56,366 nucleotides of DNA from Aquificaceae bacterium. Lineage in GTDB: Bacteria; Aquificota; Aquificia; Aquificales; Aquificaceae. Positions 41,188 through 56,366 of this stretch are shown here, piece by piece. Below the pieces are notes generated by a model. That model was not told the DNA's origin and searched no databases. It saw only the letters and a program-made list of their open reading frames with translations. The position numbers and the translations under genes were made by a program. The number at the start of each line of letters is the position of its first letter. The stretch's first letter is position 1. The stretch covers positions 27,748-84,113 of the forward strand of contig JAXSOH010000001.1 of the NCBI GenBank assembly GCA_037925805.1, written 5' to 3'.

Positions 41188-42108
41188 CTAAACCTCCTCA
41201 AAAAAGTTTTCATCTATGGCTTTTATCTCATAGGTGTATTTAACATATACGCCTACGTTGTGTTCTATCATCAAATTTACTAATCTCTTGCCATCTATAA
41301 GCACTATCTTCATACCACTTGCCCTTATTCTTTCTACTGCTATCTCAGCGTCTCTTGAAAAGTTTGATGTGGTTATTATAACACCTGACGAAGCACCTTT
41401 TCCCGTAAGAGTACCTATAAAAGTATTAATAACTTCTACCCCAACTGTGCTTTTCCATCTTTTAGCTTGGATGTATATCTCATCAAAGCCAAACTTATCT
41501 GCCTTAATTACACCATCTATGCCTTCATCTTTTGTTTTTTGAGTAGTTTCAGGCTCTCCATATCCCATTTTCTTAAGTAATTCCAGAACCAGCACCTCAA
41601 ATTTATATGGGTCTATATTTTTGAGTCTCTCAATAAGTTCATTTTCCAGCTCCGTCTTCATATCCTTTTGTAGTTTCTCTAAAATCTCCTCTTTTGGTAA
41701 GTATACTGTTTCACTTTCAAATCTATTTATTTCCTGCGAGGTTTCTTTTAAGTCAGGTTTCTTATTCTCAATCCATTCCTTATATTCAGGGTATCTCTCA
41801 AGATATTTAAGGTCTATGGGCATATCCCTGAGGGCCTTCTTACCTTCTTCGCTTATTATATAAACGCCTCTATCTTTCCTCTGTAGAAGACCTGCAACAT
41901 GCAGATGGGTTACAGCCCAGGCTATTCTGTTATCTAATGTTCTTTGACCACTTCTTAGTCTTTCTAATGCTTCATCTTCTGAAACTACTCCATTTTCAAG
42001 CAAATTTTTTCTTAGCTCTAAAATCAAATCTCTTAACCTATACTCTCTACCGTCACGAAATATATTCATCACATCGTTCAAAAGTTTCCTAACAGACGGA
42101 ATAGGCAT
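41188..42108 (-). CDS. mrr: Mrr-family (type IV) restriction endonuclease
   Basis: Mrr_N winged helix ([14 protein letters not shown]) plus catalytic DEGIDG...YIQAKRW, ITTSNFS, LIDG. Confidence 0.92.
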
Positions 42109-42919
42109 AGCTTATCTCCATTTTATTTAATCTCCCTACAGTCCATTTGATATATTCTCCCTTCTTTTCTATCATAGTCCACCTTCGACCAAGCACGCTT
42201 GCGGTATAGCCAGTAGTCCCAACTCCAGCCATAGGGTCTAAAATAAGGTCTCCCTCCCTTGTAGAGACAAGAATTATTCTTTTAAGAAGTTCAACGGGTT
42301 TTTGTGTGGGATGAACTTTTTTGCCCTTTCCGTCCTTTAGTCTTTCCTCCCCTGTGCATATGGGTATTCTCCACACATTCTCGTAAACCTTTCCAATGCC
42401 AAAGGCTTTTGCATATTCTTTGTTAAAGGTGTATTTTTTGACGCTTTTGTCCTTTACAGCCCATATAAGTGTTTCTGTGGCGTTTGTAAACCTCACTCCA
42501 AGCCAATTAGGCATAGGGTTAGTTTTTAGCCATATAACATCGTTTAATATCCAAAAGCCCATATCTTGCATTATCTTGCCCCAGCGGTGGATGTTATGGT
42601 ATGTTCCTATAACCCACAGAGTTGCGGTTTCTTTCATCACTCTTTTTACCCTTTGTAAAACCTCTTCCACAAAGCTATCATAGGCTTGGAAGTTTTCAAA
42701 GTTGTCCCACTCCTCACACACTCCGTTAACCTCTGTGCGAACGTTCCATCTCCTTAACTGCTTTTTTGGAAGCTGAAGAAAGTAAGGTGGGTCTATAAAA
42801 ACCATATCAAAAATACCATCTGGTAGCTTATCCATTACAGTTCTGCAGTCTCCGTGTATGAGAGTGTTTTCTGGGTTAGAGCCAGTAAAGTCTTCTTCCC
42901 TTACCACACTAAAGTCCAT
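42089..42919 (-). CDS. Beta-class N6-adenine DNA methyltransferase, CcrM/M.HinfI-like
   Basis: DPPY near the N-terminus, [33 protein letters not shown], motif [10 protein letters not shown]. Confidence 0.9.
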
Positions 42920-44066
42920 TTCTTGCCAACTCCACTGCCTTCTTTGCACCGTCCCACATATCCACTGCGTTTATAAAGTTTAGTCCAGATTCAGCCAGAA
43001 GTCTTCTTCCCTCCTCTACGTTTGTCCCCTCCATACGGACCACAACGGGGACTTTTATTTCTACCATCTTTGCAGCCTCTATGAGACCATTGGCAAGCCT
43101 GTCACATCTAAGGATACCACCAAAGATGTTTATAAAGACCGCCTTTACATTTTGGTCTGCCATGAGTATCCTAAAGGCGTTGGCTATTTGCTCCACATTG
43201 GCACCACCACCCACATCAAGGAAGTTGGCAGGCTCTCCTCCTGCGAGCTTTATTATATCCATGGTAGTCATAGCAAGCCCTGCACCGTTTACCATACACC
43301 CTATGTTTCCATCCAGCTTTATGTAGTTAAGGCTATACCTCTTTGCTTCCACCTCAAGGGGGTCAAGCTGAGTGAGGTCTTCAAGCTCTTCAAGGTCCTT
43401 GTGCCTTATTAGGGCATTGTCGTCAAGCTCCACCTTTGCGTCAAGAAGCACAAGGTTTCCTTCTTTTGTAAGGACAAGTGGGTTTATCTCCACAAGGCTT
43501 GCATCAAGGTCTATATATGCCTTGTAGAGAGCCAAAGCTATCTTTACAAACTCGTTTACAGGAAGTCCAAGCTTAAAGGCTATCCTTCTTGCCTGAGAAG
43601 GCATAAGACCTAAAGCTGGGTCTATATGGAGCATGTATATGGCTTCTGGTTTTTCTTTGGCAACCTCCTCTATTTCCATTCCACCCTCCGCAGAAGCCAT
43701 CAAAACGGGTTTAGAAACCGCCCTATCAAGGGTTATAGAGAGGTAGTATTCCCTTTCTATGTTGGTGGCCTTTTCTATCCATACCCTGCTTACAGGTTTT
43801 CCATCAGGGCACTGGAAGGTCTTAAGCACTTTCCCAAGCATACTCTCCACCGCTTGCTGGAGCTCTTCTGCCTTTTTGACCAGCTTTACACCGCCAGCCT
43901 TTCCACGCCCACCGCAGTGCACCTGAGCCTTTACCACAAGAGGAAAGTCCTCGAGCTCTTCACACGCCTGCAAGGCTTCTTGAAGGCTAAAGGCTACTCT
44001 TCCCTCTGGCACAGGAAGACCGTATCTTTTCAAAAGCTCCTTTGCCTGATGCTCGTGCAGTTTCAT
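42909..44066 (-). CDS. sucC: Succinyl-CoA synthetase beta subunit
   Basis: [40 protein letters not shown]. Confidence 0.95.
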
Positions 44067-44212: not shown

Positions 44213-45286
44213 CTAAGCTCTTAGATAGCCTGTATTTTTTATAAGCACCCAGCCAAAGGTGAGGTTTTTGGAGCTTATCCTCCTCGTCTTTGGCTTTTCT
44301 TTTCTGCTTTGTGAAACAGAGGCATCATAAACCCTTTCAAAAAGCTCAGGGTCTTCCTTTTTGAAAACCGCCATAATGGTGGTGCTAAGATAGCCTTGGT
44401 GCTTTCCTATGCGTAGCAAAATACCCTCCTCCATCCTTCTTTTTATTTCCTGCAGATGTGTCTTTACCTCTGGCATATTCTTGAAAAATTCCATCTCCAA
44501 GTCCAAAACAAGGCTATAAAAGCTATTAGAAAGCTCCTTGAGCCTGTCCCAGCTGAGGTCCGAATGCTTGTAATTTAACTTTTCAACGCGTATCATTCTA
44601 TCAATCAAAGACCTCTCAATGAGGAGTTTACCCTCCAGCCTTGTCCCCACCTTTATAGCTTCGCAAGCGTAAAGCGATTTATCTGAACCTATCATCTTTG
44701 GCACTTCTACGCATAGGTCTCTTAGCTCAAAAAACAGGTCAGGGAAGGCTATAGCCTTAAAAAGGTCATACTTGGCATCCACATTTCCCACAGGATTGAA
44801 AAAGCTTTCTTCAAAGCCCTTACCCTTTGAGCCAAACTCTTCAAGCTCCCTCTTATTGTTAACCTTCTGTCTTAGCATATGCCTTATCCTATCTCTCAAT
44901 TCCTTATCCGCCAGTAAAAGACCACCCATATAGGCAGTCCTTAGAGCACCCTTTAACTCACTGCCGGGTATATAAGGCATGCCAAGAGACTTTATAAACA
45001 GCTCCACCTCATTAGTCTTTAGAGAACCAACTATCTCAATTCTATAGAGAGGATTTCCCACATCAATCCCTAACTCCCTTAGCCTAGAGAGGCTAAAGTC
45101 TCTGTTTTGCATTAAGATTCTAAGGTTTTGAAGGAAGGCGGGATTTTTCTCTAAAAGGTGAGCTATCAAGTGTTGATAGGGATAAACCTCAAGGAAGTTA
45201 TCTTTTATCGTATACTCCCACTTGGTAATCCTTTCTCCACTTCCTATATGCACTGGGCTTAGAACTTCCAAGCTAAGGTTTAACAT
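44213..45286 (-). CDS. csm5: Type III-A RAMP protein Csm5
   Basis: LSPVHIGSG, PYIPGSELKGALRTA, LRIG..G, PKTR, FGWV; start at 45286. Confidence 0.9.
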   Translation of the reverse strand: MLNLSLEVLSPVHIGSGERITKWEYTIKDNFLEVYPYQHLIAHLLEKNPAFLQNLRILMQNRDFSLSRLRELGIDVGNPLYRIEIVGSLKTNEVELFIKSLGMPYIPGSELKGALRTAYMGGLLLADKELRDRIRHMLRQKVNNKRELEEFGSKGKGFEESFFNPVGNVDAKYDLFKAIAFPDLFFELRDLCVEVPKMIGSDKSLYACEAIKVGTRLEGKLLIERSLIDRMIRVEKLNYKHSDLSWDRLKELSNSFYSLVLDLEMEFFKNMPEVKTHLQEIKRRMEEGILLRIGKHQGYLSTTIMAVFKKEDPELFERVYDASVSQSRKEKPKTRRISSKNLTFGWVLIKNTGYLRA

Positions 45287-46218
45287 GGCTTTCCACCTCT
45301 CAAGTATAGAGGAAAGGCATATCCATAGTGGTATAGGTTGTGAGAAATCTGTTTCAATTTTCCGTAGTAGCCTGAGCTGTCTCTTACCTTCATAACTGCA
45401 CCAGCCTTTATAAGGGGCATGGGCTTTTTCCACAAGAGGTTTCCATGTCTTCCAAAGTAGTTTTCCACCGCAGGTCTTCTCACTTCCACGTCGTAGTAGC
45501 TTTCTTGCAGGTCAACATTTTGTGAGTAGAAAAAGTCCGAGAGGCTATAGAAATATTCCCCTGCCTTTTCCGTACACTGTGAAAGCCACTCTGGAGTTTT
45601 TAAAAGGCTTACACTAAAAAGCCCCATACCAGTAGACTTGTTGCCACCCAAGGGCAAGAGGTTATATATGGCAGGCAGAAGCTTCTCTGGTTTTTCCTCA
45701 AATTCCCAACGGTTTATCTTTACCAAAAGACAAAACTCCCCAGTGGCAAATATGCTTTCAAAGAAAAGTTCTCCTCCCGTGGTGGTGCTTGTGAGCCTAT
45801 TTATGCTGGCATGAGGGACCAAAGCCTTTGCAAAAAAACTCTTCTCTTCTTGGAGAAGTTTCTCGTAGTCTATGGCATTTCCCATAAGAAAGTCCCTAAG
45901 GACCTCCTCAGACACAAAACTCAGAGACTTTAACTTTTTATACTTTCTGTATGCAGAAAATTCCCTATTATCTAAGCTCCTTAGGTCTATCTTTAAGCCA
46001 AGGGACGCAGGCTTTGGAAAGTATAGCCTTCCTCCTTCTCTGAAAAGGAGAGAGGAAAATATAACAGGTGGAGAGCTATTGTAGTCTTCTAAGAACCTCC
46101 TTAGCCTATCTTCTCCATACAAAAGCCTCAGACCCCAGCAAAAAGCTCCAAAGAAAGTATGACTGCTTGGTAAGGACTTAAGAAAGCCAAAAGGTTTAAA
46201 AAGAAGCGTTAAGAGCAT
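45280..46218 (-). CDS. csm4: Type III-A RAMP protein Csm4
   Basis: PSSHTFFGA, INRLT, LGGNKSTGMG, HYGYAFP; operon position. Confidence 0.88.
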   Translation of the reverse strand: MLLTLLFKPFGFLKSLPSSHTFFGAFCWGLRLLYGEDRLRRFLEDYNSSPPVIFSSLLFREGGRLYFPKPASLGLKIDLRSLDNREFSAYRKYKKLKSLSFVSEEVLRDFLMGNAIDYEKLLQEEKSFFAKALVPHASINRLTSTTTGGELFFESIFATGEFCLLVKINRWEFEEKPEKLLPAIYNLLPLGGNKSTGMGLFSVSLLKTPEWLSQCTEKAGEYFYSLSDFFYSQNVDLQESYYDVEVRRPAVENYFGRHGNLLWKKPMPLIKAGAVMKVRDSSGYYGKLKQISHNLYHYGYAFPLYLRGGKPC

Positions 46219-47027
46219 AGCTTAAGAAGATCTTCAGCACTTATTTCCTCAAGTTTTTTGCCTTCTATCCTCTTAGGCTCAGCCTTGCCAAGGTAAGCGG
46301 ATTCGGACTTGAACTCCACATTTAGTTTTTCAAACTTCACCCTTCCAGAACCCCTTGAACCATAACCACCAAGATAGTTATCCTCCAACATCCCCATGCC
46401 CCGTAAAAGCAAAGAGAGAAGTTTCTTGTCCTCTTCTTTGTATAAGTTAAAGACTATCCTACCCACAAAGACCGCACCCGCAGGCACTCTTTCCACCTTT
46501 CTGGGATTAGCCCTTGAGTTTATCCTGTTTATCTGGTTTTCTGTCTTTATCTCCGTATATATACTCTCACCCAGCTCCTTTTGTATCCTGTCAAGGGTAT
46601 TCTCCGTTGGGTATGCATCACAGAAGATGAGCCTTGGTGGTCCTGGTTGCTCTTGGAGAGGAAGACTTTCAAGGGTTTTGGCATTTCCAGTGCCAAAGAG
46701 TATGCATATACTACATTTTCCACAGTCGCAGGGAGAACCTGCAAGTTTTATATCTGTCCCTGCCTTCTTTATCATCTTCTCCACACTTCCAGTAGACCAC
46801 TCAAGGAGACTTCTTATCTTGCCCTTGAGAGAAGAGCCCGGTATGTAGGGAACACCCTTTGGGAGCTCTCTGCCAGAGGGATAAAAGGCTGGTATGCTTA
46901 TGTAGGTTTTTATCACAGGATTGTCAAGACCGCCTATGTCAAAGTTTTCCTTTGAACCCCCTATGCGAATACCAGTAAGAGCCTTCAGCTCATACTCAAA
47001 GACAAAAGAACCCAGAAACCTAAACAT
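46209..47027 (-). CDS. csm3: Type III-A backbone RNase Csm3
   Basis: TGIRIGG, IGGLDNPVIK (catalytic Asp), YIPGSSLKGKIRSLLE, ERVPAG, LGGYGSRGSG. Confidence 0.95.
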   Translation of the reverse strand: MFRFLGSFVFEYELKALTGIRIGGSKENFDIGGLDNPVIKTYISIPAFYPSGRELPKGVPYIPGSSLKGKIRSLLEWSTGSVEKMIKKAGTDIKLAGSPCDCGKCSICILFGTGNAKTLESLPLQEQPGPPRLIFCDAYPTENTLDRIQKELGESIYTEIKTENQINRINSRANPRKVERVPAGAVFVGRIVFNLYKEEDKKLLSLLLRGMGMLEDNYLGGYGSRGSGRVKFEKLNVEFKSESAYLGKAEPKRIEGKKLEEISAEDLLKLCS

Positions 47028-47039
47028 GGCTTAACCTCC

Positions 47040-47474
47040 CTATGATTCCTTTTTGGAATAGGCTACCATTGCCATAAAGAAGTCCGAAGCCTTGCGTAGG
47101 CTTTCTTCGGTAAAGTTCTTCTCAATGCTGTCAAGAACACTACGCACGAGGTTTCCAAAATCCTTCTTTATTACTCCCCTATTCTCCTGATACTGGGTTA
47201 TGGCATATAGTCTGTAGAGGTAATACTTTAGCTCTTCTTTTTTCTTGCCTTCCTGTAGTCTGTCGTAGATGTTTCTTATCTCTGAATAGAACCTCCTAAG
47301 CTGAACCCCTTTGAGCCCTAAGTTTTCCACTATCCTACTGGCATAGCCCTCTGGATGAAATATGTCTCTGTCATCCAATTTGGAAAGGTCTCCACCCAGG
47401 CCCTTTAATTTGTTTAGGAATTCAGACACATAACTATTAGACCCTTGACCTCCTCTATGCATGCTCTGGCTCAT
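47040..47474 (-). CDS. csm2: Type III-A small subunit Csm2
   Basis: QLRRFY, Y..NR, FF.AMVAY; lies between cas10 and csm3. Confidence 0.9.
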   Translation of the reverse strand: MSQSMHRGGQGSNSYVSEFLNKLKGLGGDLSKLDDRDIFHPEGYASRIVENLGLKGVQLRRFYSEIRNIYDRLQEGKKKEELKYYLYRLYAITQYQENRGVIKKDFGNLVRSVLDSIEKNFTEESLRKASDFFMAMVAYSKKES

Positions 47475-47503
47475 GTATGAACCTCCATATAATTTTTATA
47501 ACC

Positions 47504-49774
47504 CTACTCCCTATCATTTTCTGACACACCCCTTGTTTTCATTATCACATATTTTGCCATAAAAAGTGCATTCCTCTTAACGGTATAGTCCTTATCTGTC
47601 TCTATAAGGGTTTTCACAAACTTTTCACGCTCTCCCCCTTTCACGTTTCTGTGAATCTGGTAATAGAAAAGTGGATAAAACTTCCACCATTTCTCCTTAC
47701 GGTTTTCTCTGAAGTATTTCATCAACATGTATATGCGATAAAAGGTTGACCTGCCTATGTATCCCTCTTTGATAAACTGCTCCAGTTTCTTTGAATTGTT
47801 AATGCCATCCTTTAGCTCCTCTTGGGTAAGGATTTCGTTAAGTATAGAAAAGTGAGGAAGATCCTCGGATTTCTCGCCTTCGGAAATTATTCTTGTTTTT
47901 TCCCTTTTTACACTTTTTTCCTCTACCTCCGCAAACTCTCCTGCAAAACGCACTGGCACTTCTGGTCTATCTATATGAAAGCCCACGGAGAAGTTCATAA
48001 TAGGGTTACAGGCGGTATATTCGTCAAAATCCTCCTTTAGCTCCAAAATCTTTTCCACAAGCTGGTCCCAAGGTCCTATCAAGAAAAAGTCATCTCCACC
48101 CGCATACAGGGTATATATGTCAGAGCCCTTGAGGAACTCGTTGAGATATCCAGAAAAGAAAAGGTCAAGACTTCTGCTCAAAGTGGCAAGCCTTGAGAGA
48201 GAATACTCCTTTATAGACTGGAATATAAGACCCAAAAAGTCCACATCACCCCTTGCAAAGGCTATCTTTTTGTCCCCTTTTGCCTTCTCAGAAAGGTTTT
48301 CAAAATCCAAGGTAGAGCCTTCTTCATTCTTTGGAACATAGTTGGCAAAAAAGAGAAAGCCATCCGCTCCCTTCTCAAGAAAGTCTGTATGGTTTATGAG
48401 ATAGACCTCCTCAAGGTCTTCCTCTGGCTCTTCTAACAGATAAACACCCCCTATGCCCTCAAGGTAAAAACCCCACCTATTTAACCACATATGCGTATCA
48501 AAGGCTATATACTTAGCCTTAGTGAGAGCGTTGCCAAGCTCAAGAAAGACTTCACACCATTTACAGACTTCCTTTCCTTCTTCTACCATTCCCCACATGC
48601 AAGAGGGACACATACCATCCCCCTTCCCATAAGCAAGCTCTTCAAAAACTTCCATAGTTAGGCTAAACTTTCTCTTCTTTTGCAGGCTTATCCTTTCGTG
48701 TAGCCTTTTCATGGTTTCCCTAAAACCCTCACCACTAAGACCCTCCTCCCTCGTATCAACCCAAGAAAGCACAAAGCCCAGCTTACCACCAAACTCCCTT
48801 ATAAAAGCCTCTTCTACCCTCTTGGCAAAACTCCTTAGCTTGTCTTCTATGCCCTCCTCGTAGCCAAAAAGTGCCAAAAACTTCCCTCCACCTGCGTATA
48901 TAAGATTACATAGAGGATATTCCAATTCTTTTAGCAATGCCCTTGCCACAAGATGAGGAAGCACCGAAAGGAAAAAGCTCCTACCCCTTAACCTCTTTGC
49001 CACACCCTTTATATTGGTAAGAGAAAAGAGAAACTCTTGAATTCCACTTATATCACCATCCACTAACAAAAACCTTTCCTTATTTGTGGAAAGTGCACAG
49101 GCTATGGCAGAGACCATCCTTGAGTGGTCAAAAAGGGATATGTCTGGATAGTGTCTTGTGCCTCTTTCCCTGTCATAGGTAGACGCAGGGACGCACCAAC
49201 AGTATTTGTAAAAGAGATGATAAACCTTTAGAAAAGCCTTGTGAAGGTCGGAAAAGTCTACCTTCTTTAACTCGGACTCAAATGCTTTGAGAATGTCCGC
49301 ATATTTATCTACAGGAGTGCCTTCCTTTGGAAATAGCACATCTTTAGTTAGCTCAAGCTTATTGAGTTCTATGTAGTATTCTTTGTCTAACTGTGAGTTA
49401 AAAAAGTTAACCTCAAGACCCAAAAAGATAGGTTTTAGCCTTTTTATGGCTTTATCGGAGATGTCTTCTTGTTCTTGACTTCTTTCTTTGCTTGAGTTTA
49501 TGTCCGCAACTTGGTATAGCTTTTGCTCTTGGTTCTTGGGCTTGTGATGAAAGGCAGAGTCAAGCACCTTTTGGTAATCGTCTGGGCTTAACTTGTTTTT
49601 TAATGCCCTCTCTATAAACTTATAAGACAGCTCCGCATGAGCGTAGCCAAAACCTTCCTTACCTTCTGCCTTTTCCCCCGCTCTGTCTAACAGCTTACCA
49701 ACATCATGAAAAAGACCCCCAAGTGCCAACAAAACCCTATACCTGTATTTATCCATAGCTCCCCTCACTAACAT
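47504..49774 (-). CDS. cas10: Cas10/Csm1 with HD nuclease and GGDD cyclase palm (start may be MDKY at 49756)
   Basis: LFHDVGK, DISLFDH, GDISGIQ, LRGRSF, CxxC..CxxC Zn finger, YAGGDDF. Confidence 0.96.
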   Translation of the reverse strand: MLVRGAMDKYRYRVLLALGGLFHDVGKLLDRAGEKAEGKEGFGYAHAELSYKFIERALKNKLSPDDYQKVLDSAFHHKPKNQEQKLYQVADINSSKERSQEQEDISDKAIKRLKPIFLGLEVNFFNSQLDKEYYIELNKLELTKDVLFPKEGTPVDKYADILKAFESELKKVDFSDLHKAFLKVYHLFYKYCWCVPASTYDRERGTRHYPDISLFDHSRMVSAIACALSTNKERFLLVDGDISGIQEFLFSLTNIKGVAKRLRGRSFFLSVLPHLVARALLKELEYPLCNLIYAGGGKFLALFGYEEGIEDKLRSFAKRVEEAFIREFGGKLGFVLSWVDTREEGLSGEGFRETMKRLHERISLQKKRKFSLTMEVFEELAYGKGDGMCPSCMWGMVEEGKEVCKWCEVFLELGNALTKAKYIAFDTHMWLNRWGFYLEGIGGVYLLEEPEEDLEEVYLINHTDFLEKGADGFLFFANYVPKNEEGSTLDFENLSEKAKGDKKIAFARGDVDFLGLIFQSIKEYSLSRLATLSRSLDLFFSGYLNEFLKGSDIYTLYAGGDDFFLIGPWDQLVEKILELKEDFDEYTACNPIMNFSVGFHIDRPEVPVRFAGEFAEVEEKSVKREKTRIISEGEKSEDLPHFSILNEILTQEELKDGINNSKKLEQFIKEGYIGRSTFYRIYMLMKYFRENRKEKWWKFYPLFYYQIHRNVKGGEREKFVKTLIETDKDYTVKRNALFMAKYVIMKTRGVSENDRE

Positions 49775-49848: not shown

Positions 49849-50271
49849 ATGAGGTCTTTGGCTTTTATCCTTCTATTGAGTTTCTTGCTTTCTTATCCTT
49901 TAGCTAAAGAAATTCCCTTCACTCTTGAAGATAGGGATAGGATTATAAGGCTTGAGGAAAACCAGAGAGAGGGTTTTAAAGCTCTAATACAAAGGATAGA
50001 TGATACAAACAAAAGGATAGATGATATAAACAAAAGGATAGATGACACGAACAAGAGGATAGATGACATGATAAGTATTATGCTCTGGGGTTTTGGTGTT
50101 TTGTTTGCTGGTATGATGAGCCTTATAGGTTTTGTGATATGGGATAGGAGAAGTGCACTTGCTCCAGCTATTAGGAAGACAAAGGAGCTTGAAGAAAGAG
50201 AGGAAAAGATTGAAAAGGCTCTCAAGAAACTCGCAGAAAAAAACCCAGAAGTAAAAGAAGCCCTAAAATAA
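49849..50271 (+). CDS. Hypothetical exported/membrane coiled-coil protein with RIDD(T/I)NK heptad repeats
   Basis: Signal peptide, heptad repeats, one internal TM, charged helical tail; TATAAT 7 nt before the ATG. Confidence 0.75.
   Translation: MRSLAFILLLSFLLSYPLAKEIPFTLEDRDRIIRLEENQREGFKALIQRIDDTNKRIDDINKRIDDTNKRIDDMISIMLWGFGVLFAGMMSLIGFVIWDRRSALAPAIRKTKELEEREEKIEKALKKLAEKNPEVKEALK
49993..50067 (+). repeat. 21-bp coding tandem repeat, about 3.5 copies
   Basis: AGGATAGATGA(T/C)A(C/T)(A/G)AACAA(A/G) units at 49993, 50014 and 50035, plus a partial unit at 50056. Confidence 0.9.
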
Positions 50272-50375: not shown

Positions 50376-50932
50376 GTCTCCATCCCTCACGGTGGGCTTA
50401 AAACAAGGACACTTTGTTGGCAAGGTTTTGGTGCCAACTATGTCTCCATCCCTCACGGTGGGCTTAAAACTGATATTACTACTTCCCATTATTCCTGTGT
50501 TCTTATTGTCTCCATCCCTCACGGTGGGCTTAAAACAATTGGCAAAAGCATACGAAGATGGCGAGCTTACGGGTCTCCATCCCTCACAGTGGGCTTAAAA
50601 CAGCATTCTCACAAACTGCTCGTATTGCTCATTTGCTGTCTCCATCCCTCACAGTGGGCTTAAAACTAAGTTCATAGTAAGTGGGGACCCAGCTTTGGTT
50701 CTGTCTCCATCCCTCACAGTGGGCTTAAAACACGAGGTAAGGACTAACTAAAGGCAAGGGGCTCGGGGTCTCCATCCCTCACAGTGGGCTTAAAACAATG
50801 CATGGAATGTGTGTGGGGTGTGGGTGATAGATAAGTCTCCATCCCTCACAGTGGGCTTAAAACTCCACGTATACGGGGGGCTGATCGAAGCAAGATTCAA
50901 AATGTCTCCATCCCTCACAGTGGGCTTAAAAC
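50376..50932 (-). CRISPR. CRISPR array: 9 repeats of 29 bp and 8 spacers of 36-40 bp; crRNA-sense repeat GTTTTAAGCCCAC(T/C)GTGAGGGATGGAGAC
   Basis: Plus-strand GTCTCCATCCCTCAC(G/A)GTGGGCTTAAAAC at 50376, 50442, 50508, 50573, 50638, 50703, 50768, 50835 and 50904. Minus orientation is supported by the ATGGAGAC 3' handle and by the promoter on the right. Confidence 0.98.
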
Positions 50933-50952
50933 CCCAAAGCCACATATAAAGA

Positions 50953-51304: not shown

Positions 51305-52030
51305 ATGCCTATTAAACTGGCTCTTAGCTTTAAGGCTGAGGCAAACTTGGAGGTTTCTAATGACCTTATGCATGCCTTTGTCTTTTCCTTGTTTCCACAA
51401 GAGGTAGCAGAAAAGGTTCACAAGAGAGAGGAAAAGCCTTTTAGCCTTAGAGGTTGGAACTTTACAGAGAGGGGTTTATTGCTTAGGATTTCTCTTTTGG
51501 AAGACCAGCTTTTTCCAGCGTTGGTTAGTCATTTTTACCTTTCTAAAAATGGCTTTAGGCTAAAGGATGTGGAGCTACAGCCTGTTGTGCCAAGTGGTCT
51601 AAGAGAAGAGGAGTCCATATCTTACCAAGAACTCTTGGAGCTTGAAGCCTGCGAGCACTACTCGGTGGACTTTATAAAACCTACCACCTTTAGAAGAGGT
51701 CGTTGGGACTATCCCCTTCCAGACCCACCCGCATTGTTTAGCAGTCTCTACAAAAAATGGAAGAGCCATCACCCTTTTCCTTTGGAAGAGGACAAGCTCC
51801 TACATCAGGTCTATTCCAAAGTTTACATCTTAGCACACAAAATAAGGGTTGAGACGGTGGAGCTTTCCTTTGGAAAACTTAGAGGTTTTGTGGGAAATGT
51901 GGTCTTTGGTGTCAATGACAAGGAGCTCTCAAGGTTAGTTCATGCCTTGCTTAAGTTTGGCGAGTTTTCTGGAGTTGGAAGAAAAAGTGCCATGGGTATG
52001 GGAGTTATGGTCTTGCGTAAAGAAACCTAA
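51305..52030 (+). CDS. cas6: CRISPR precursor processing endoribonuclease Cas6
   Basis: H...KPFS, PTTF, PLPDP, GFVG, C-terminal G-rich loop GVGRKSAMGMG. Confidence 0.93.
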   Translation: MPIKLALSFKAEANLEVSNDLMHAFVFSLFPQEVAEKVHKREEKPFSLRGWNFTERGLLLRISLLEDQLFPALVSHFYLSKNGFRLKDVELQPVVPSGLREEESISYQELLELEACEHYSVDFIKPTTFRRGRWDYPLPDPPALFSSLYKKWKSHHPFPLEEDKLLHQVYSKVYILAHKIRVETVELSFGKLRGFVGNVVFGVNDKELSRLVHALLKFGEFSGVGRKSAMGMGVMVLRKET

Positions 52031-52440
52031 GAGTCCCAGCTGGAAGAACCCCAGCTATTCCAGGAAGAGCTACCACTGTCCCAGTCATTGGAGGAATTCC
52101 ACCAATTGTCGTTGCTTGAGTCCCAATGGTTGTTAAAGACATGATACATAGGGCATGATGGGTCCCACATGGCACGGGAAATATCGCAGTCATCGTGGCT
52201 GTCCCACCTTCTTGTGGTGTCGTTGTCAAGGAATGAGTGGCTGTCCCGAAGTTTTCTGTCTTCATCCTCAAGAGGGCTATGAGAGTCTAAGGAGCTCGTG
52301 TTTGCTGGGCTGGTGTTTTCCCACTGCTCTGAAGGGTTAGAAGTCCCAGGGTGCACGTTAGAAGAGAAGGCTTCGTCGTTGGCATCTTTTATCTTCCAGA
52401 GGAGAAAGAGGACTGCCAGCAGTAAAAGTATCCATTCCAT
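52027..52440 (-). CDS. Hypothetical protein: N-terminal membrane anchor plus low-complexity S/D/N/W-rich tail
   Basis: Strong SD AGGAGGTGA; MEWILLLLAVLFLLWK anchor; repeated W-[DN]-S; stop overlaps the cas6 stop. Confidence 0.75.
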   Translation of the reverse strand: MEWILLLLAVLFLLWKIKDANDEAFSSNVHPGTSNPSEQWENTSPANTSSLDSHSPLEDEDRKLRDSHSFLDNDTTRRWDSHDDCDISRAMWDPSCPMYHVFNNHWDSSNDNWWNSSNDWDSGSSSWNSWGSSSWDS

Positions 52441-52456
52441 AGCTCACCTCCTATCT

Positions 52457-52543
52457 CTAAGAGTTTGGAAAGGCTTCATCGTTGGATTTTTTAATTCTCC
52501 ATATAAGAAAGGCAAGCACCAAAGCCAAAACTAACCACTCCAT
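52457..52543 (-). CDS. 28-aa membrane peptide MEWLVLALVLAFLIWRIKKSNDEAFPNS, paralog of the N-terminus of the downstream gene
   Basis: Translated by hand; ATG lies 2 nt after the calpL stop with SD GGAGG; aligns without gaps to MEWILLLLAVLFLLWKIKDANDEAFSSN. Confidence 0.7.
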   Translation of the reverse strand: MEWLVLALVLAFLIWRIKKSNDEAFPNS

Positions 52544-52545
52544 AG

Positions 52546-54012
52546 CTACCCTCCCATAGTTATAATGTATCCTCCCTCTCGCAAACTTCTTAGAAACTCA
52601 AGGTCAAGCACCCGCTCGTAGGTTCTGTCTTTGCTACTGTAGTTGTATATGTATCCCTTGTCGTAGTGTCCAAAGGCTACACCAAAAAGATATGCCAAAG
52701 CGACAGGGCAGGAAAAGAAAAAGTGAATTGCCTTATAGGCTTTCTTACCCTTTACCTCTTGCACCGCAGAGGAGACTTCTTGAGCTATCCTCTTGAAAGT
52801 GCTCGGCTCAAGGTTTCCCCTATAGGACTCTGTGGTAAGGAGCAAAAGGTCCGCAAGAATGCCCTTGCTCTCTAAGAAATGCTCCACGTCCGCAGTGGGA
52901 TTGTGGTGGGAGAAAAAGAGGACTACCGCAAGGTCTTCTCCACCTTCTTTTAGTTCACTTTTCACAAATTGGTAGTCCCTTGTGTGCTCCTTTATCTCCC
53001 TTGTGTTTTGTAGGTCAATGGGAAAGTATTTTCTCTCACTGCTATGGTAATGGTAGAAAACAGAGGGTCTTGTGTGTCCGTAGAGAATTCCCAAGGCAAA
53101 GGAAAGGCTCGCAGGTCCGTTTACCGCAATATGAGCTTTTAGCCTACCTATTAGGGTATAGTCAAGGATGCTTATGAGCCCAAAAAACCTTTTTGCAGTT
53201 TCCTGCCATCCGATACCGCTTAGCTGACTTGTTTGTATGACAAGTTTTGCTGGGTCTATGCGATGGATATTTTTTAAGTTTAGTAGGTTTTCCTCCTTAT
53301 GGAAAAACTCCTCAAGCCTTAGGTGGTCAATGGAAACCGCCACAGGAACTTCCACAATATTTGCACTTAGCCAATTCAAAAGGTCATCCACCTTAGGAAG
53401 ATGAAAGGGCATAGCCAAGTGCATATTGAACCTTTCACACACCTCAGACTTTTTATCCAAAGAGTCCACCTTCACTATGCTACCATCCTTTCTAACTCCA
53501 CCGCTCCAACAGAGGTTTGGTGGTAGCCTTTTCTTTTCCGCATCCATACACAAAGCCAAGGTCAAAGAAAGTTGAAAGCTATTTCCCACAAACTCACTGT
53601 CAAAGATAACACTAACAGACCCAGACACAAAGCCTTTGGAACGCAGATATTCCACCACTGGAGTGATATACCTTTTCTTTTCTGGTAGGTTGCAAAAGAC
53701 CTCTGGTGTATCCTTTATTGCCAGACCCCTTATTAGCTTGCCATCCCTTTCAGAGACCGCAGGAAACTCAAACTCCACATAGGGATTTTCCAAAAGTGCC
53801 TTTGCGACCGCCTTTTTTATACCCAAAGCCTTGGCAAGTTTTTCCTCATCAAAATACCTTTCAGAAAGGCGTAGATACTTTACCAAAGCAAAATGCACCC
53901 CAGGGCTTAGATAATCCCACTGCCTTATAAGGTCTACAAGGACTTCTTCCAAGTCTCCCCTGTAGAGAAACTCTATAAGGTCTTTTTCCTTGAAAAGGCT
54001 AAAGTTCCACAA
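52546..54012 (-). CDS. calpL: CalpL-like cyclic-oligoadenylate-activated Lon protease-SAVED fusion
   Basis: Lon-type dyad: GNS145F...K188, 43 residues apart, with the SGGV.KDG.I.KV segment. C-terminal SAVED motifs (IHFFFSCPVALAYLFG, YIYNY). TTG start with GGAGG SD; type III context. Confidence 0.88.
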   Translation of the reverse strand: MWNFSLFKEKDLIEFLYRGDLEEVLVDLIRQWDYLSPGVHFALVKYLRLSERYFDEEKLAKALGIKKAVAKALLENPYVEFEFPAVSERDGKLIRGLAIKDTPEVFCNLPEKKRYITPVVEYLRSKGFVSGSVSVIFDSEFVGNSFQLSLTLALCMDAEKKRLPPNLCWSGGVRKDGSIVKVDSLDKKSEVCERFNMHLAMPFHLPKVDDLLNWLSANIVEVPVAVSIDHLRLEEFFHKEENLLNLKNIHRIDPAKLVIQTSQLSGIGWQETAKRFFGLISILDYTLIGRLKAHIAVNGPASLSFALGILYGHTRPSVFYHYHSSERKYFPIDLQNTREIKEHTRDYQFVKSELKEGGEDLAVVLFFSHHNPTADVEHFLESKGILADLLLLTTESYRGNLEPSTFKRIAQEVSSAVQEVKGKKAYKAIHFFFSCPVALAYLFGVAFGHYDKGYIYNYSSKDRTYERVLDLEFLRSLREGGYIITMGG

Positions 54013-54772
54013 CCTTTAATTCCTCCGGAATGTTTATTCCAAAGAAGTTTCCAAGAATCTCCAACCTTGGAGACTCCACCTCACCCTCAAAGACCACCAC
54101 AGAACCCAAAAGCACCCTAACAACCTTACCCACAAACTCTATAGGCAAGTATAGCCTTAGCAAACCCTCCTCCAAAACCACAAAGAAATTCCCTACTTTG
54201 AAGTATCTATTATCCGCTGCGAGAGCATAAGTGCGTATCTCTTCAAGAGCCTTTTCTGTATCTGGTGAAAGCCTTATAACTTGCGCCTCTTCTCTTTCTG
54301 CAAGCTCCGCCTGAGCCAACAATGAATACATAGTCCACTTTGCCCAACGCTTAGAATTGAGTTTGATGAACCTTCTCGTGGCAAACTTTAGCTCCTTTTC
54401 CTTTGACAGGTATTCTTCTATTTTGCTTAGCTCCTCTTCAGGCAGTTTACCTATGACCTGACTGTAGTTTTCTATAAGCTCCCTTCTTAAATAATCCCAT
54501 ACTGGAACCACACCCAGTTTAAGCCCACGAGACCTTAGCTCGTAAATAGGCGTGGAGTTAGGTAAAACCTGCAAATAGGAAGTGAGAGGAACTGTTTTGT
54601 ATAGACCCTCTTGGACTTCTTGCAAAATAACAAACCTCTCTACAGGCACAGACCACAACTCCCTTATCTGCCCCACTTTCGGCTCCTTTTTATGAGGAAC
54701 TTCCAGAAGCTCATTGCTCCCTTCCTTCAAGTTCTTCTCGTATATCTCCAAAAGCTCCAATTCCAAACTCAT
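53999..54772 (-). CDS. calpT: CalpT-like anti-sigma factor / protease substrate
   Basis: Lies between the sigma factor and Lon-SAVED genes; MazF-fold-like N-terminus (PKVGQI...VPLTSY) and small beta-rich C-terminal domain. Confidence 0.8.
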   Translation of the reverse strand: MSLELELLEIYEKNLKEGSNELLEVPHKKEPKVGQIRELWSVPVERFVILQEVQEGLYKTVPLTSYLQVLPNSTPIYELRSRGLKLGVVPVWDYLRRELIENYSQVIGKLPEEELSKIEEYLSKEKELKFATRRFIKLNSKRWAKWTMYSLLAQAELAEREEAQVIRLSPDTEKALEEIRTYALAADNRYFKVGNFFVVLEEGLLRLYLPIEFVGKVVRVLLGSVVVFEGEVESPRLEILGNFFGINIPEELKVVEL

Positions 54773-55434
54773 GGCACGTCTCCTCTTTCATTACATATAT
54801 AACCCCTTTTTTGACAAACCTCTGACAAAAACCTTTCCACCATCGCCCTTATCTCCTCTGGAGAGGCATCACCTAAGATATCCTTCAGTTTACCCTTCCG
54901 TAGCCTTTCCCACCTCTTATATAGGTTATCCTTAGAAATATCCCTCAGTTCTATCTCCGAGTTATATAGATACTTATAAAAGTAATAGCATAGCACTACC
55001 ATATCTCCGTCTTTGAGATTTTTCATAAGTGTCTCAAAAAGCGTGCTACCCTCCACCTCCGCAAAGTGATGTCTCGTATCCCTGAGGTTATCTTCATAAA
55101 CTACAGGCTTTGCATCCTCCTCTTCAAAAACCTGTTCTTGAAGGCTGTAAACCTCTATCTTTTCACCGTTTATAATGTCTACTAAGAAGTTTCTTATGAG
55201 GGTTTTCAAGTAATGCAGGTTTATATACTCTAACCTCTGCAGATAGTCTTTGTTGTTTATTAGCCTAAGCCTCAGCTCAGATAGGACTTCCTCCTCGTAG
55301 TCATCTCCGAATTTTCTCCTTAGCAAGGCGTCCATATACTGGCTCAATAAGGACCTTATTAGTTTTTTCATATAGTTCTCTTCTTTTGCACCGCCATATA
55401 AAAAGCCAGAGATAAGTTGTTTGTAGTCCTTCAT
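54769..55434 (-). CDS. calpS: CalpS-like ECF sigma factor
   Basis: Region 2-like YLKTLIRNFLVD and region 4-like ISKDNLYKRWERLR; ATGA-coupled to calpT. Confidence 0.78.
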   Translation of the reverse strand: MKDYKQLISGFLYGGAKEENYMKKLIRSLLSQYMDALLRRKFGDDYEEEVLSELRLRLINNKDYLQRLEYINLHYLKTLIRNFLVDIINGEKIEVYSLQEQVFEEEDAKPVVYEDNLRDTRHHFAEVEGSTLFETLMKNLKDGDMVVLCYYFYKYLYNSEIELRDISKDNLYKRWERLRKGKLKDILGDASPEEIRAMVERFLSEVCQKRGYICNERGDVP

Positions 55435-55883
55435 CTAAAATACTCCCTTCTTAAGCTATCAAGAAACTCAAGGTCTCTACACGTGCCACAAAATTCGTAT
55501 TTAAACTCTCTAAACCTATCCTTATGCACCATATAGGCAAGCACCTCTTGTCTGTTTCTGTCTCTTAAGATAAAGCACTCTACATCAAGGCTTTGACATG
55601 CTTTATTTTTACCCCTATAGCAAAGACTGAGGTCTACCCTGCGTTTTGAGTAGGTTTTTGTAGTTAGAAAGACAATAAGGTAAAAGTCCCTTTCAAGCCT
55701 TCCTATAAAAGGTCTTCTCCTTCTCGCCTTGTATACTCCAAGGTCTAACCTAAGAAGGTCTTCAAGCCTTGATAGTGTCTCATCGGTAAAAACTCCCAAG
55801 AACCTCTCCCCAGAAGCCACAATTTTCTCTTCGTCGCCTAACTTTTTCTCAAAGAGTTTCTCAAAACCCTTGAGCTTTTCCAT
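55431..55883 (-). CDS. Hypothetical Cys-containing protein with a PemK/MazF-like motif
   Basis: RRRRPFIG...LIVFLTTK resembles the PemK/MazF K-x-R-P...V-P-h-T-T motif; ATGA-coupled to calpS; TATAAT upstream. Confidence 0.55.
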   Translation of the reverse strand: MEKLKGFEKLFEKKLGDEEKIVASGERFLGVFTDETLSRLEDLLRLDLGVYKARRRRPFIGRLERDFYLIVFLTTKTYSKRRVDLSLCYRGKNKACQSLDVECFILRDRNRQEVLAYMVHKDRFREFKYEFCGTCRDLEFLDSLRREYFR

Positions 55884-55902
55884 TTGGTAATAAGATTATA
55901 GC

Positions 55903-56310
55903 TTAGTCCTCTTTGACTGCTACCATATCAAAGATAACTAACTGCTTTTTGTTGTTTACGTGGCACATGCGAATATCATTGTCAAAGGTCAAAGAAGAGG
56001 CTACCACGCTAAAGGTTTTAGTCCCAGCGGTTATGTCTATTAAGATTTCCTTTTCCTTGTAGCCCTGTGCCTTGAGACTTTCTATTGCTTTGTTGAAAGT
56101 TCTTTGTAGGTTCAACATATCCTCATAGTCCACTGCCTCACTAAATTCAAAAATGTGGTGTTCTATCCCTGCATTTGCCCGCATATATTCAACGAACTTC
56201 TCAGAATGTTCTGCACCTTCTGGAGAAGGAATTACTACAACTTTCTTTAACTCAGCACCTTGTTCCAAGCACTTTTTTATCAAAAATTCCTGCGGGAGTG
56301 TTTCATCCAT
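55903..56310 (-). CDS. CARF-domain protein (start uncertain; frame stays open to the window edge)
   Basis: VVVIPS, VDYED, ILIDITAGTK CARF motif II, followed by a helix and the CHV strand. Confidence 0.78.
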   Translation of the reverse strand: MDETLPQEFLIKKCLEQGAELKKVVVIPSPEGAEHSEKFVEYMRANAGIEHHIFEFSEAVDYEDMLNLQRTFNKAIESLKAQGYKEKEILIDITAGTKTFSVVASSLTFDNDIRMCHVNNKKQLVIFDMVAVKED

Positions 56311-56340
56311 TGTGTAAAAATAAAGTAAGGAGGTGTTAAC

Positions 56341-56366
56341 ATGAAACAGCCAAGCAAGGAGAAAAT
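56341..56366 (+). CDS. Possible start of a divergent gene running off the window (MKQPSKEK...)
   Basis: Near-perfect SD TAAGGAGGT 6 nt before the ATG; only 8 codons visible. Confidence 0.4.

What the first reader, a model, noticed from the sequence alone, without database searches (positions are those of the whole stretch)
52027..55883. Extended six-gene Calp-type operon beside a type III-A CRISPR system
Seen: six minus-strand ORFs in the order orf150 - sigma - anti-sigma - Lon-SAVED - 28-aa peptide - 137-aa protein. They are tightly coupled, with ATGA overlaps at 55431-34 and 54769-72, a 14-nt overlap at 53999-54012, and gaps of 2 and 16 nt, and there is one TATAAT at 55895-55900. Cas10 has an intact GGDD. 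Established: CalpL/T/S from Sulfurihydrogenibium is a cA4-activated protease cascade that targets an anti-sigma factor bound to an ECF sigma. Inference: the three extra genes are further components or outputs of that cascade. I do not know of them being described, and the regulon of CalpS is unresolved as far as I know.
Basis: partly seen in the sequence, partly recalled or inferred. Interest (0 to 1): 0.9.

Follow-up and report, generated by a model that had tools for sequence, protein, structure and literature searches.

The report
Fourth Calp gene and CalpS promoter
The known three-gene CRISPR protease switch (CalpL–CalpT–CalpS) almost always carries a fourth gene, predicted to be a MazF-type RNA-cutting toxin, and a repeated DNA motif found here is likely the missing promoter through which the CalpS sigma factor switches on CRISPR and membrane-defence genes.

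Summary
All six ORFs and their spacings are real, but they are not one conserved six-gene unit. CalpL/T/S are genuine homologues. orf150 is a conserved fourth gene. It lies directly upstream of 73 of 81 calpS matches in 178 genomes of the phylum, with one clear exception. Its family was catalogued in 2018 as C3a162, 'unknown'; I found no paper linking it to Calp. It models as a MazF/PemK fold and keeps the MazF catalytic Arg (110/110) and Thr/Ser (109/110), plus four Cys.

A motif, TGTCAGA-N17-GTT, with ECF-promoter geometry lies inside the calpS 3' end before calpT (23 of 28 loci; Ser codon TCA in 24 of 25). It also precedes cas10 and csm2 here, and cas7, cas1/2, cmr, Cam1-like, dynamin and lipoprotein genes elsewhere. 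calpS-positive genomes hold 264 sites in 71 genomes; negative ones 116 in 107. It is the likely CalpS promoter, although it persists in some genomes where calpS was not found.

The 137-aa gene is genus-restricted and a probable regulon output; the 28-aa gene is a truncated copy. Toxicity, binding and promoter use are untested.

The parts
55431..55883 (-). orf150 (C3a162 family): conserved fourth Calp gene; predicted MazF/PemK fold with R57, T74 and four Cys (C88, C96, C132, C135)
55895..55900 (-). TATAAT 11 nt before the orf150 ATG; likely -10 of a near-leaderless housekeeping promoter for orf150-calpS (TATAAT-like hexamer within 30 nt of the start in 16 of 28 orf150 homologues, 1 of 28 calpT)
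54769..55434 (-). calpS, ECF-like sigma factor
54797..54827 (-). Candidate CalpS promoter inside the calpS 3' end: TGTCAGA-N17-GTTATAT, ending about 26 nt before the calpT ATG
53999..54772 (-). calpT, anti-sigma factor with conserved A185-A186 (predicted cleavage and degron motif)
52546..54012 (-). calpL, Lon-SAVED protease (S145/K188 dyad; H321, R338, H370)
52457..52543 (-). 28-aa MEW peptide: truncated duplicate of the N-terminal hydrophobic segment of the 137-aa gene; probable remnant
   Evidence: (D6)
52027..52440 (-). 137-aa MEW protein: N-terminal hydrophobic segment, CD(I/L)SRA.WDPSCP.Y motif, Ser/Asp/Trp-rich tail; genus-restricted probable regulon output
55903..56292 (-). C-terminal CARF part of an interrupted Cam1-like TM-CARF gene
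56293..56366 (+). End of a multi-copy IS-like element (54 matches in the genome) that interrupts the Cam1-like gene at the contig end
49781..49811 (-). Candidate CalpS promoter upstream of cas10 (TGTCAGA-N17-GTTTTAT)
47496..47526 (-). Candidate CalpS promoter at the cas10 3' end, upstream of csm2 (TGTCAGA-N17-GTTATAA)
47504..49774 (-). cas10/csm1 with HD and GGDD (predicted source of cyclic oligoadenylate)
44213..47474 (-). csm2-csm3-csm4-csm5 (named from recalled sequence features and order; not scanned against a family library)
50376..50933 (.). CRISPR array, 9 repeats at 65-69 nt spacing
51305..52030 (+). cas6, convergent with the 137-aa gene (4-nt overlap)

Best explanation
This is a four-gene Calp module (orf150-calpS-calpT-calpL) in which orf150 is predicted to be a MazF-type RNase and CalpS likely reads the promoter TGTCAGA-N17-GTT to switch on a CRISPR and membrane-defence regulon. 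Shown here: the gene order, its conservation, the conserved residues and the positions of the motif. Taken from papers on homologues: cA4 from Csm activates CalpL, which cleaves CalpT at an Ala-rich motif; the exposed degron leads to CalpT destruction and frees CalpS. Inferred: orf150-calpS are made constitutively from a near-leaderless -10 promoter. Freed CalpS then transcribes cas10, csm2, the cmr/cas7/cas1-2 operons, Cam1-like, dynamin-like and lipoprotein genes. From the site inside its own gene it also transcribes calpT-calpL, which gives negative feedback, and here the MEW genes ride on that transcript. Most speculative: orf150 is a latent RNase held inactive by the MazF-like domain of CalpT and released by the same cleavage, giving a fast toxic arm beside the transcriptional one.
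For: orf150 linkage. It is directly upstream of calpS in 15 of 15 fetched loci. Phylum-wide, 68 of 81 calpS matches have it within 500 bp and a local HMM found 5 more. 64 genomes have both genes, of 67 with orf150 and 71 with calpS, n=178. There is a 428-aa orf150-CalpS fusion (hhalign 98.9%). In a published table the C3a162 member SYO3AOP1_0653 lies three locus tags before CalpL, SYO3AOP1_0656. Fold. AF2 pLDDT is 87. The top 14 VIA rows are all MazF/PemK/Kid/CcdB/ToxN-type (best Z 6.1, rmsd 2.9, 93 aligned). The Atlas gives a PemK cluster at 0.93 with 187/256 shared features for a homologue. R57 is kept in 110/110 and T/S74 in 109/110; these align with the PemK RP..TT positions that equal B. 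subtilis MazF R25/T48, catalytic per PMC7354611. CalpT keeps Arg at the apparent equivalent position in only 5 of 28, and no cA4-dependent RNase was seen for CalpT. Promoter. In calpS-positive loci chosen by gene anchor, 56 of 110 TGTCAGA have GTT exactly 17 nt later, against 0-7 at spacers 14-16 and 18-20. Inside calpS, Ser204 is TCA in 24 of 25 against 17% at other Ser; codon 203 ends in TG in 24 of 28; codon 211 is NGT in 24 of 28 while coding R/G/C/S. The motif precedes calpT in 23 of 28 loci and orf150 in 0 of 28. 3 of the 4 strict sites in this 1.49-Mb genome are in this CRISPR locus. Phylum counts are 264 sites in 71 calpS-positive genomes and 116 in 107 negative ones, with reversed-pattern controls 20 and 32. 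The geometry equals the ECF41 promoter TGTCACA-n16-CGTC/TGTT (PMC3426412) and resembles the CASP-sigma sites TCACATT-N13-CGAC (PMC10028731 Table S2). In the genus, the complete or near-complete calpS-negative genomes G014, G016 and G019 have 0 strict sites, and this genome's only other ECF gene has an in-frame stop.
Against: No activity, binding or transcription start was measured. The sequence link to MazF is weak (hhalign probability 16%, E 0.0016), Foldseek had no hit at E<=0.001, and Z 6 is middling. The fusion is a single sequence on one contig and was not re-found. The motif also occurs in calpS-negative genomes: 10 of 26 TGTCAGA in 13 type III loci from 9 such genomes have GTT at 17; calpS was not found in G040, G042, G053, G056 and G058 even at E<=1; 19 calpS-negative genomes have 3 or more strict sites, and 7 calpS-positive drafts have none. 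5 of 28 loci lack the site inside calpS, among them L044, whose CalpL has the published SsCalpL numbering. The genomes are related, so the p-values overstate. Smalakyte et al. saw growth arrest with only CalpL/T/S in E. coli (abstract), so a fourth gene is not needed for that effect. One calpS locus (G077) lacks orf150, and one intact orf150 (G088) stands without calpS.
Confidence: 0.55

Rival explanations
1. The promoter reading is right, but orf150 is a non-toxic regulatory or structural subunit of the CalpS/CalpT complex, as Csx31 is in the Csx30-Csx31-RpoE complex: a Zn-stabilised MazF-fold protein that binds RNA or protein and tunes sigma release.
For: It is translationally coupled to calpS and has a constitutive-type -10. 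It is fused to CalpS, not CalpT, in P0106. An orphan intact copy exists in G088 with no CalpT beside it to neutralise it. Csx31 forms a ternary complex and suppresses toxicity (10.1101/2022.08.17.504292, passages).
Against: The Arg and Thr/Ser at the MazF catalytic positions are invariant at about 21% median pairwise identity, which argues for catalysis. Truncated orphan copies in G091 and G084 fit the decay of a toxin once its partner is lost.
Confidence: 0.25
2. The motif is read by some other factor (a host sigma or an activator of CRISPR and envelope genes), and calpT-calpL are merely members of that regulon.
For: Sites persist before cas10, csm2, cas6 and cmr1 in genomes where calpS was not found. 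Several targets are envelope genes: CsgG, BamE-like, FadL-like, PLDc_N. Five calpS-negative genomes of family f3 each have five sigma70-family genes, four of them including a 210-216-aa ECF-sized one.
Against: Complete calpS-negative genomes of the same genus have no strict sites. None of 18 host sigma loci carries the motif, so there is no autoregulatory site. The site is held by synonymous constraint inside calpS itself. In the two complete or near-complete calpS-negative genomes of genus g20 (G057, G059) most sites lie in coding or antisense positions and look like chance. Relic promoters on transferred or retained cas operons would explain the rest.
Confidence: 0.15
3. One reading: all six genes form one dedicated, co-transcribed Calp operon, and both MEW genes are core components.
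For: The spacing is tight. The same arrangement occurs in 4 other genomes. MEW137 occurs in 10 of the genus's genomes with full-length calpL.
Against: Those 4 genomes are 96-97% identical in CalpL. In 8 other complete loci of the 15 no MEW gene follows calpL. MEW137 was found in 1 of 21 genera. The 28-aa ORF is frameshifted in G015. A strain contig has most of MEW137 replaced while calp is intact. There is an internal promoter-like site before calpT.
Confidence: 0.05

Closest known systems
CalpL-CalpT-CalpS (Sulfurihydrogenibium YO3AOP1; Ca. Cloacimonas acidaminovorans)
   Same: Lon-SAVED with the Ser/Lys dyad and ring-nuclease residues, anti-sigma with an Ala-Ala motif, ECF-like sigma, adjacent genes, type III locus with GGDD Cas10, Cam1-like neighbour.
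   Different: The papers I could read call it tripartite and give no CalpS promoter or targets. Here a fourth MazF-fold gene is conserved upstream of calpS and a candidate promoter and regulon are defined.
C3a162 (Shah et al. 2018, PMC6546367)
   Same: Same family: 30 of 110 members match the model, and the ORF upstream of calpS in L044 matches at E 4e-58. The listed member SYO3AOP1_0653 is three tags from CalpL.
   Different: It was listed with 3 members as 'unknown structure-function', with no fold, no catalytic residues and no link to the Lon cassette in the rows read. The window's own protein does not hit the model at E<=0.01.
Type III-E Craspase: Csx29 / Csx30 / CASP-sigma / Csx31
   Same: A protease cuts an anti-sigma; the ECF sigma has sites in its own CRISPR locus (cas1, a membrane protein); a fourth conserved small gene of unknown role is present.
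   Different: A different protease (CHAT, RNA-activated, no second messenger) and a different motif (TCACATT-N13-CGAC). Homology of orf150 to Csx31 was not tested.
MazF/PemK/ToxN endoribonucleases
   Same: Predicted SH3-like barrel; conserved Arg-Pro and Thr/Ser at the catalytic positions.
   Different: No Pfam PemK hit; four conserved Cys (possible Zn site or disulphides); no adjacent MazE-type antitoxin; activity untested.
ECF41 promoter (PMC3426412)
   Same: -35 TGTCA(C/G)A, 16-nt spacer, -10 (C/G/T)GT(C/T).
   Different: G in place of C in the -35 and an AT-rich run after GTT; CalpS is not an ECF41 protein (no C-terminal extension).

Membership tests
CalpL | Lon protease domain with Ser-Lys dyad | tested here: met
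   S145/K188 align with S152/K193 and are invariant in 9 of 9 sequences; 7qda E 2.9e-31
CalpL | C-terminal SAVED domain with ring-nuclease residues | tested here: met
   PF18145 E 4e-25; H321/R338/H370 = H345/R361/H392
CalpL | cA4-dependent cleavage of CalpT | not testable with these tools
   needs biochemistry
CalpT | Homology to CRISPR-T, adjacent to calpL, Ala-rich cleavage motif | tested here: met
   PADLOC CRISPR-T E 2e-13; A185 in 24/28 and A186 in 25/28
CalpS / ECF sigma | sigma2 and sigma4 domains joined by a short linker, adjacent to calpT | tested here: met
   Two helical domains. VIA: CnrH Z 6.4, rmsd 3.3, 80 aligned on residues 2-90, and sigma4 domains on 120-194. The top five Foldseek rows are sigma factors but at E>=0.2. 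No Pfam hit. The scores are middling, so context carries part of the call.
Tripartite Calp cassette | Only three dedicated genes | tested here: not met
   A fourth gene lies directly upstream of 73 of 81 calpS matches
C3a162 | Match to the family profile | tested here: met
   30 of 110 family members match, best E 3.5e-27; L044 member E 4e-58. The window protein does not hit directly and is linked through alignments A1/A5.
MazF/PemK toxins | SH3-like MazF fold | tested here: met
   Top 14 VIA rows are all of this superfamily, best Z 6.1, rmsd 2.9, 93 aligned; Atlas PemK cluster 0.93; Foldseek not significant
MazF/PemK toxins | Catalytic Arg and Thr | tested here: met
   R57 110/110 and T/S74 109/110; the register rests on a weak profile alignment
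MazF/PemK toxins | Sequence-profile membership (PF02452) | tested here: not met
   0 of 18 members hit at E<=1
MazF/PemK toxins | Homodimeric endoribonuclease neutralised by a cognate antitoxin | not testable with these tools
   needs RNase and neutralisation assays
ECF-type promoter | Bipartite -35/-10 at fixed spacing upstream of genes | tested here: met
   56 of 110 at spacer 17 against 0-7 at other spacers; the sites end 14-37 nt before the calpT start
ECF-type promoter | Found only where the cognate sigma is present | tested here: inconclusive
   About 3.5-fold enriched with calpS but present in cas operons of calpS-negative genomes
ECF-type promoter | Transcription start that depends on the sigma factor | not testable with these tools
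   The two raw-read RNA runs gave no reads on the locus
Cam1 (upstream gene) | N-terminal TM segment plus CARF domain | tested here: inconclusive
   Met in intact relatives (PADLOC TM+CARF E 7e-24); in this genome only the CARF part is assembled, cut by an IS end
Csx31 | Homology to Csx31 | not tested
   No Csx31 sequence was fetched; no family member hit a PADLOC model named Csx31 at E<=0.01

The most novel reading that the evidence does not exclude
Calp is a four-part switch in which one proteolytic cut has two outputs. It frees an ECF sigma that reads TGTCAGA-N17-GTT and induces type III, type I and adaptation genes, Cam1, bacterial dynamins and envelope lipoproteins across the genome. It also frees a Cys4 MazF-fold RNase whose antitoxin is the catalytically decayed MazF domain of the anti-sigma CalpT. 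A promoter hidden in the calpS codons then resupplies CalpT and CalpL to reset both arms.
Probability: 0.3. Interest if true: 0.92.

Novelty: new variant of a known kind. Interest (0 to 1): 0.8.

Why it matters
Three mechanistic papers read here describe Calp as tripartite and leave the CalpS targets unnamed. A concrete promoter consensus and target list make that question testable with one reporter or in-vitro transcription experiment. They suggest that a type III signal transcriptionally boosts type I, type III, adaptation and membrane-repair genes together. A conserved MazF-fold partner with intact catalytic positions would explain why CalpT carries a MazF-like domain for which no activator-dependent RNase was found. 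It would also mean that reconstitutions done so far lacked one arm of the system.

Tried and rejected
Complex prediction of orf150 with CalpT and CalpS: score 0.00, verdict 'no answer'; no evidence either way. Pfam, NCBIfam and PDB sequence searches for the orf150 family gave nothing meaningful. The profile comparison of orf150 with CalpT was not significant (probability 0.3%), so the CalpT-to-MazF register is only apparent. No phage homologue of orf150 was found in 50,697 records. A genome-contig scan with CalpL gave one locus. A metagenome scan with the fusion protein gave one unfused locus with the same gene order. RNA: two raw-read runs (about 3% of each read) had 0 reads on the locus. One RNA contig set covered 27 of 30 bins with the highest summed depth over the 137-aa gene (76.8) and almost none over orf150, but contigs show neither level, strand nor co-transcription, so I do not count it. 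The sigma70 scan found no promoter. I rejected the idea that the motif in calpS is only protein conservation, because of the codon constraint. I rejected the idea that it is a shifted sigma70 promoter, because the TGTCAG to TATAAT-like distance is 19-22 nt against the 16-18 of the scan's sigma70 definition. Literature: searches found no paper that names a fourth Calp gene, uses C3a162 functionally or gives a CalpS promoter. The Nature 2023 Calp paper was not held, and the bioRxiv supplements (WebFLAGs figure) and figures could not be seen; they may show the gene. No species tree was built, so the co-occurrence counts are not phylogenetically independent.
Full report
Observation. The six ORFs, overlaps and gaps are as described. 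Cas10 has HD and GGDD. The window ends at the contig end. A seventh ORF, a CARF C-terminus, stops 19 nt before orf150. In close relatives it is a 248-aa TM-CARF gene of Cam1 type. Here it is cut at 56293 by the end of an element with 54 matches in the genome, and its N-terminal half is not in the assembly. A 97%-identical relative is titled 'Aquificaceae bacterium', which gives the taxonomic frame.

The known core. The 488-aa protein matches solved CalpL (E 2.9e-31) and keeps the Lon dyad and three SAVED residues important for cA4 handling. The 257-aa protein matches CRISPR-T (E 2e-13) and has the Ala-Ala motif. The 221-aa protein models as two helical domains whose best structural rows are mostly sigma2 and sigma4 domains, at middling scores.

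orf150 is a fourth gene. Homologues occur in 16 of 61 relatives, and all 15 fetched loci have them directly upstream of calpS. Loci from the other families of the order, fetched by calpL, also have a 150-230-aa ORF there, and these align with invariant R-P and four Cys. In 178 genomes of the phylum, 67 have the family, 71 have calpS and 64 have both. Of 81 calpS matches, 68 have an orf150 match within 500 bp upstream, and a local profile found 5 more. Of the remaining 8, four lie at contig starts, three were not inspected and one (G077) is a true exception. Of 80 orf150 matches, 73 have calpS downstream. Of the other 7, two are at contig ends, two (a tandem pair in G108) were not inspected, two are truncated orphans, and one is an intact orphan beside a CRISPR array (G088). 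Pairwise identities of orf150 track those of CalpS (rho 0.54) about as well as CalpT does (0.56); relatedness alone can produce this. A profile search of 1.84 billion representatives gave 128 hits, among them proteins named from Thermosipho and Thermodesulfobacterium and a 428-aa orf150-CalpS fusion (single sequence, one contig).

What orf150 is. 30 of 110 family members hit PADLOC's C3a162. Shah et al. 2018 (PMC6546367; passages and supplement rows read) list C3a162 as 'unknown structure-function' with three members, one of them SYO3AOP1_0653, three tags before CalpL at SYO3AOP1_0656. So the family was catalogued but not interpreted. The AF2 model (pLDDT 87) matches MazF/PemK/Kid/CcdB/ToxN in the top 14 VIA rows (best Z 6.1). 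Foldseek lists mostly the same families but none at E<=0.001. The Atlas places a homologue next to a PemK cluster (0.93). In alignment A5 (the window protein plus 109 of the 128 hits; 19 fragments, long forms and near-copies left out), R57 is kept in 110, T/S74 in 109 and each of four Cys in 109-110. A weak profile alignment (probability 16%) puts R57 and T74 on the PemK positions that equal B. subtilis MazF R25 and T48, the catalytic pair (PMC7354611, passages). CalpT's MazF-like half keeps the Thr/Ser but has Arg in only 5 of 28 at the apparent position, and the first Calp preprint found no activator-dependent RNase for it (10.1101/2021.12.06.471393, part 1 and passages). An active RNase paired with a decayed MazF domain is therefore my inference; it is not shown.

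A candidate CalpS promoter. Comparing upstream regions showed TGTCAG before Cam1-like and MEW genes. The same motif lies in the last codons of calpS. There it is constrained as DNA: Ser204 is TCA in 24 of 25 (17% TCA at other Ser), codon 203 ends in TG in 24 of 28 (Leu or Met), and codon 211 is NGT in 24 of 28 while coding four different residues. The full motif precedes calpT in 23 of 28 loci and orf150 in 0 of 28; orf150 has a TATAAT-like hexamer close to its start in 16 of 28. In 42 calpS-positive loci chosen by gene anchor, 56 of 110 TGTCAGA have GTT exactly 17 nt on, against 0-7 at other spacers. In this genome 3 of 4 strict sites are before calpT, cas10 and csm2. Looser sites precede cmr1, cmr4, two dynamin-like (LeoA-like) genes and two unannotated genes; a few other loose sites look like chance. 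In relatives the sites precede cas10, csm2, cas7, cas2, cas1, cas6, cmr1/4/5, Cam1-like, CsgG-family and other lipoprotein genes, a PolB-type exonuclease and gamma-glutamylcyclotransferases (cas names partly from recalled sequence features). The geometry equals the ECF41 promoter (PMC3426412, passages) and resembles the CASP-sigma sites, which likewise lie in their own CRISPR locus (PMC10028731, passages and Tables S2-S3). Strict sites number 264 in 71 calpS-positive genomes and 116 in 107 negative genomes, with reversed-pattern controls 20 and 32. The gap persists in genomes at least 95% complete after removing one site per positive genome (3.5 against 1.3).

Against this reading: in 13 type III loci of 9 calpS-negative genomes, 10 of 26 TGTCAGA still have GTT at 17; calpS was not found in five such genomes; and five of 28 loci lack the intragenic site. 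A host sigma is a weaker candidate. Complete calpS-negative members of the genus have no sites, this genome's other ECF gene has an in-frame stop, and none of 18 sigma loci carries the motif.

The MEW genes. The 137-aa protein was found in 11 of 61 genomes, all of one genus, and 6 database proteins. It follows calpL only in five near-identical genomes; elsewhere it sits by cas2, a Cam1-like gene or housekeeping genes. Five of the six stand-alone copies have the motif upstream, one with an 18-nt spacer and one with TGTCAGT. The sixth lacks it, in G018, where calpL is only a fragment. Three small proteins of similar build (hydrophobic N-terminus, acidic tail) follow the motif in distant genomes, two of them calpS-negative. 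In this lineage the gene lies downstream of the calpT site. It therefore behaves like a mobile regulon member, a membrane-anchored acidic protein of unknown action, and not like a cassette component. The 28-aa ORF repeats its first 28 residues and ribosome-binding region and is frameshifted in G015.

Model. Steps known from homologues (10.1101/2024.05.08.593097, abstract, passages and discussion section; PMC11417357, passages): cA4 activates CalpL, CalpT is cut and degraded, and CalpS binds RNA polymerase. Inferred: CalpS reads TGTCAGA-N17-GTT (about 0.75); orf150 is a functional part of the module (about 0.9), an active RNase (about 0.6), and gated by CalpT cleavage (about 0.35).

Novelty. 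The core is known and the family label exists. The link of C3a162 to Calp, its fold and the promoter were not found in searches or in the papers read (also 10.1101/2025.07.01.662501, PMC11229360 and 10.1101/2022.08.17.504292, passages only). The Nature 2023 paper was not available, and preprint supplements could not be seen. The scan's own notes held nothing by sequence and two analogous private-promoter findings on unrelated DNA. Verdict: a new variant of a known kind; interest 0.8.

Noticed in passing
window 56293-56366: End of an IS-like element with 54 matches in the genome, followed in other copies by an RBS and an ORF start; it interrupts the Cam1-like gene and breaks the contig.
   Followed up: partly
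L022:5451-5466, L023, L032, L033: The palindrome TGTCAGAAATCTGACA serves as two back-to-back candidate promoters, one for the Cam1-like gene and one for a divergent Gly-rich lipoprotein gene.
   Followed up: partly
L161:762-2435, L163:845-1411 (own genome C11, C25): Two dynamin-like (PADLOC LeoA-like) genes are each preceded by a near-consensus motif; candidate CalpS targets outside the CRISPR locus.
   Followed up: partly
own genome C36:11720 and 15584: A second, type III-B locus has motif-like sites before cmr1 and cmr4.
   Followed up: partly
L132:3403-4340: Tandem duplication of the orf150 gene upstream of calpS; five genomes of genus g11 show two adjacent matches.
   Followed up: no
L020:9647-10314: calpS is split in two (146 + 75 aa) in complete genome G015, while the motif sites are retained.
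   Followed up: no
L127:2509-2943: An intact orf150 homologue beside a CRISPR array with no calpS/T/L next to it; the genome (G088) has five motif sites.
   Followed up: partly
window 49849-50271 (+): A 140-aa coiled-coil protein with 21-nt repeats, between cas10 and the array; it belongs to a family with about nine other matches in this genome.
   Followed up: no
window 41188-42949 (-): A DNA-methyltransferase-like gene followed by an Mrr-like nuclease gene, inserted between sucC and sucD (recalled motifs, not scanned).
   Followed up: no
L101, L108, L177: CsgG-family lipoprotein genes are preceded by the motif in three genomes where calpS was not found.
   Followed up: partly
P0124: [quoted passage not shown]
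   Followed up: no
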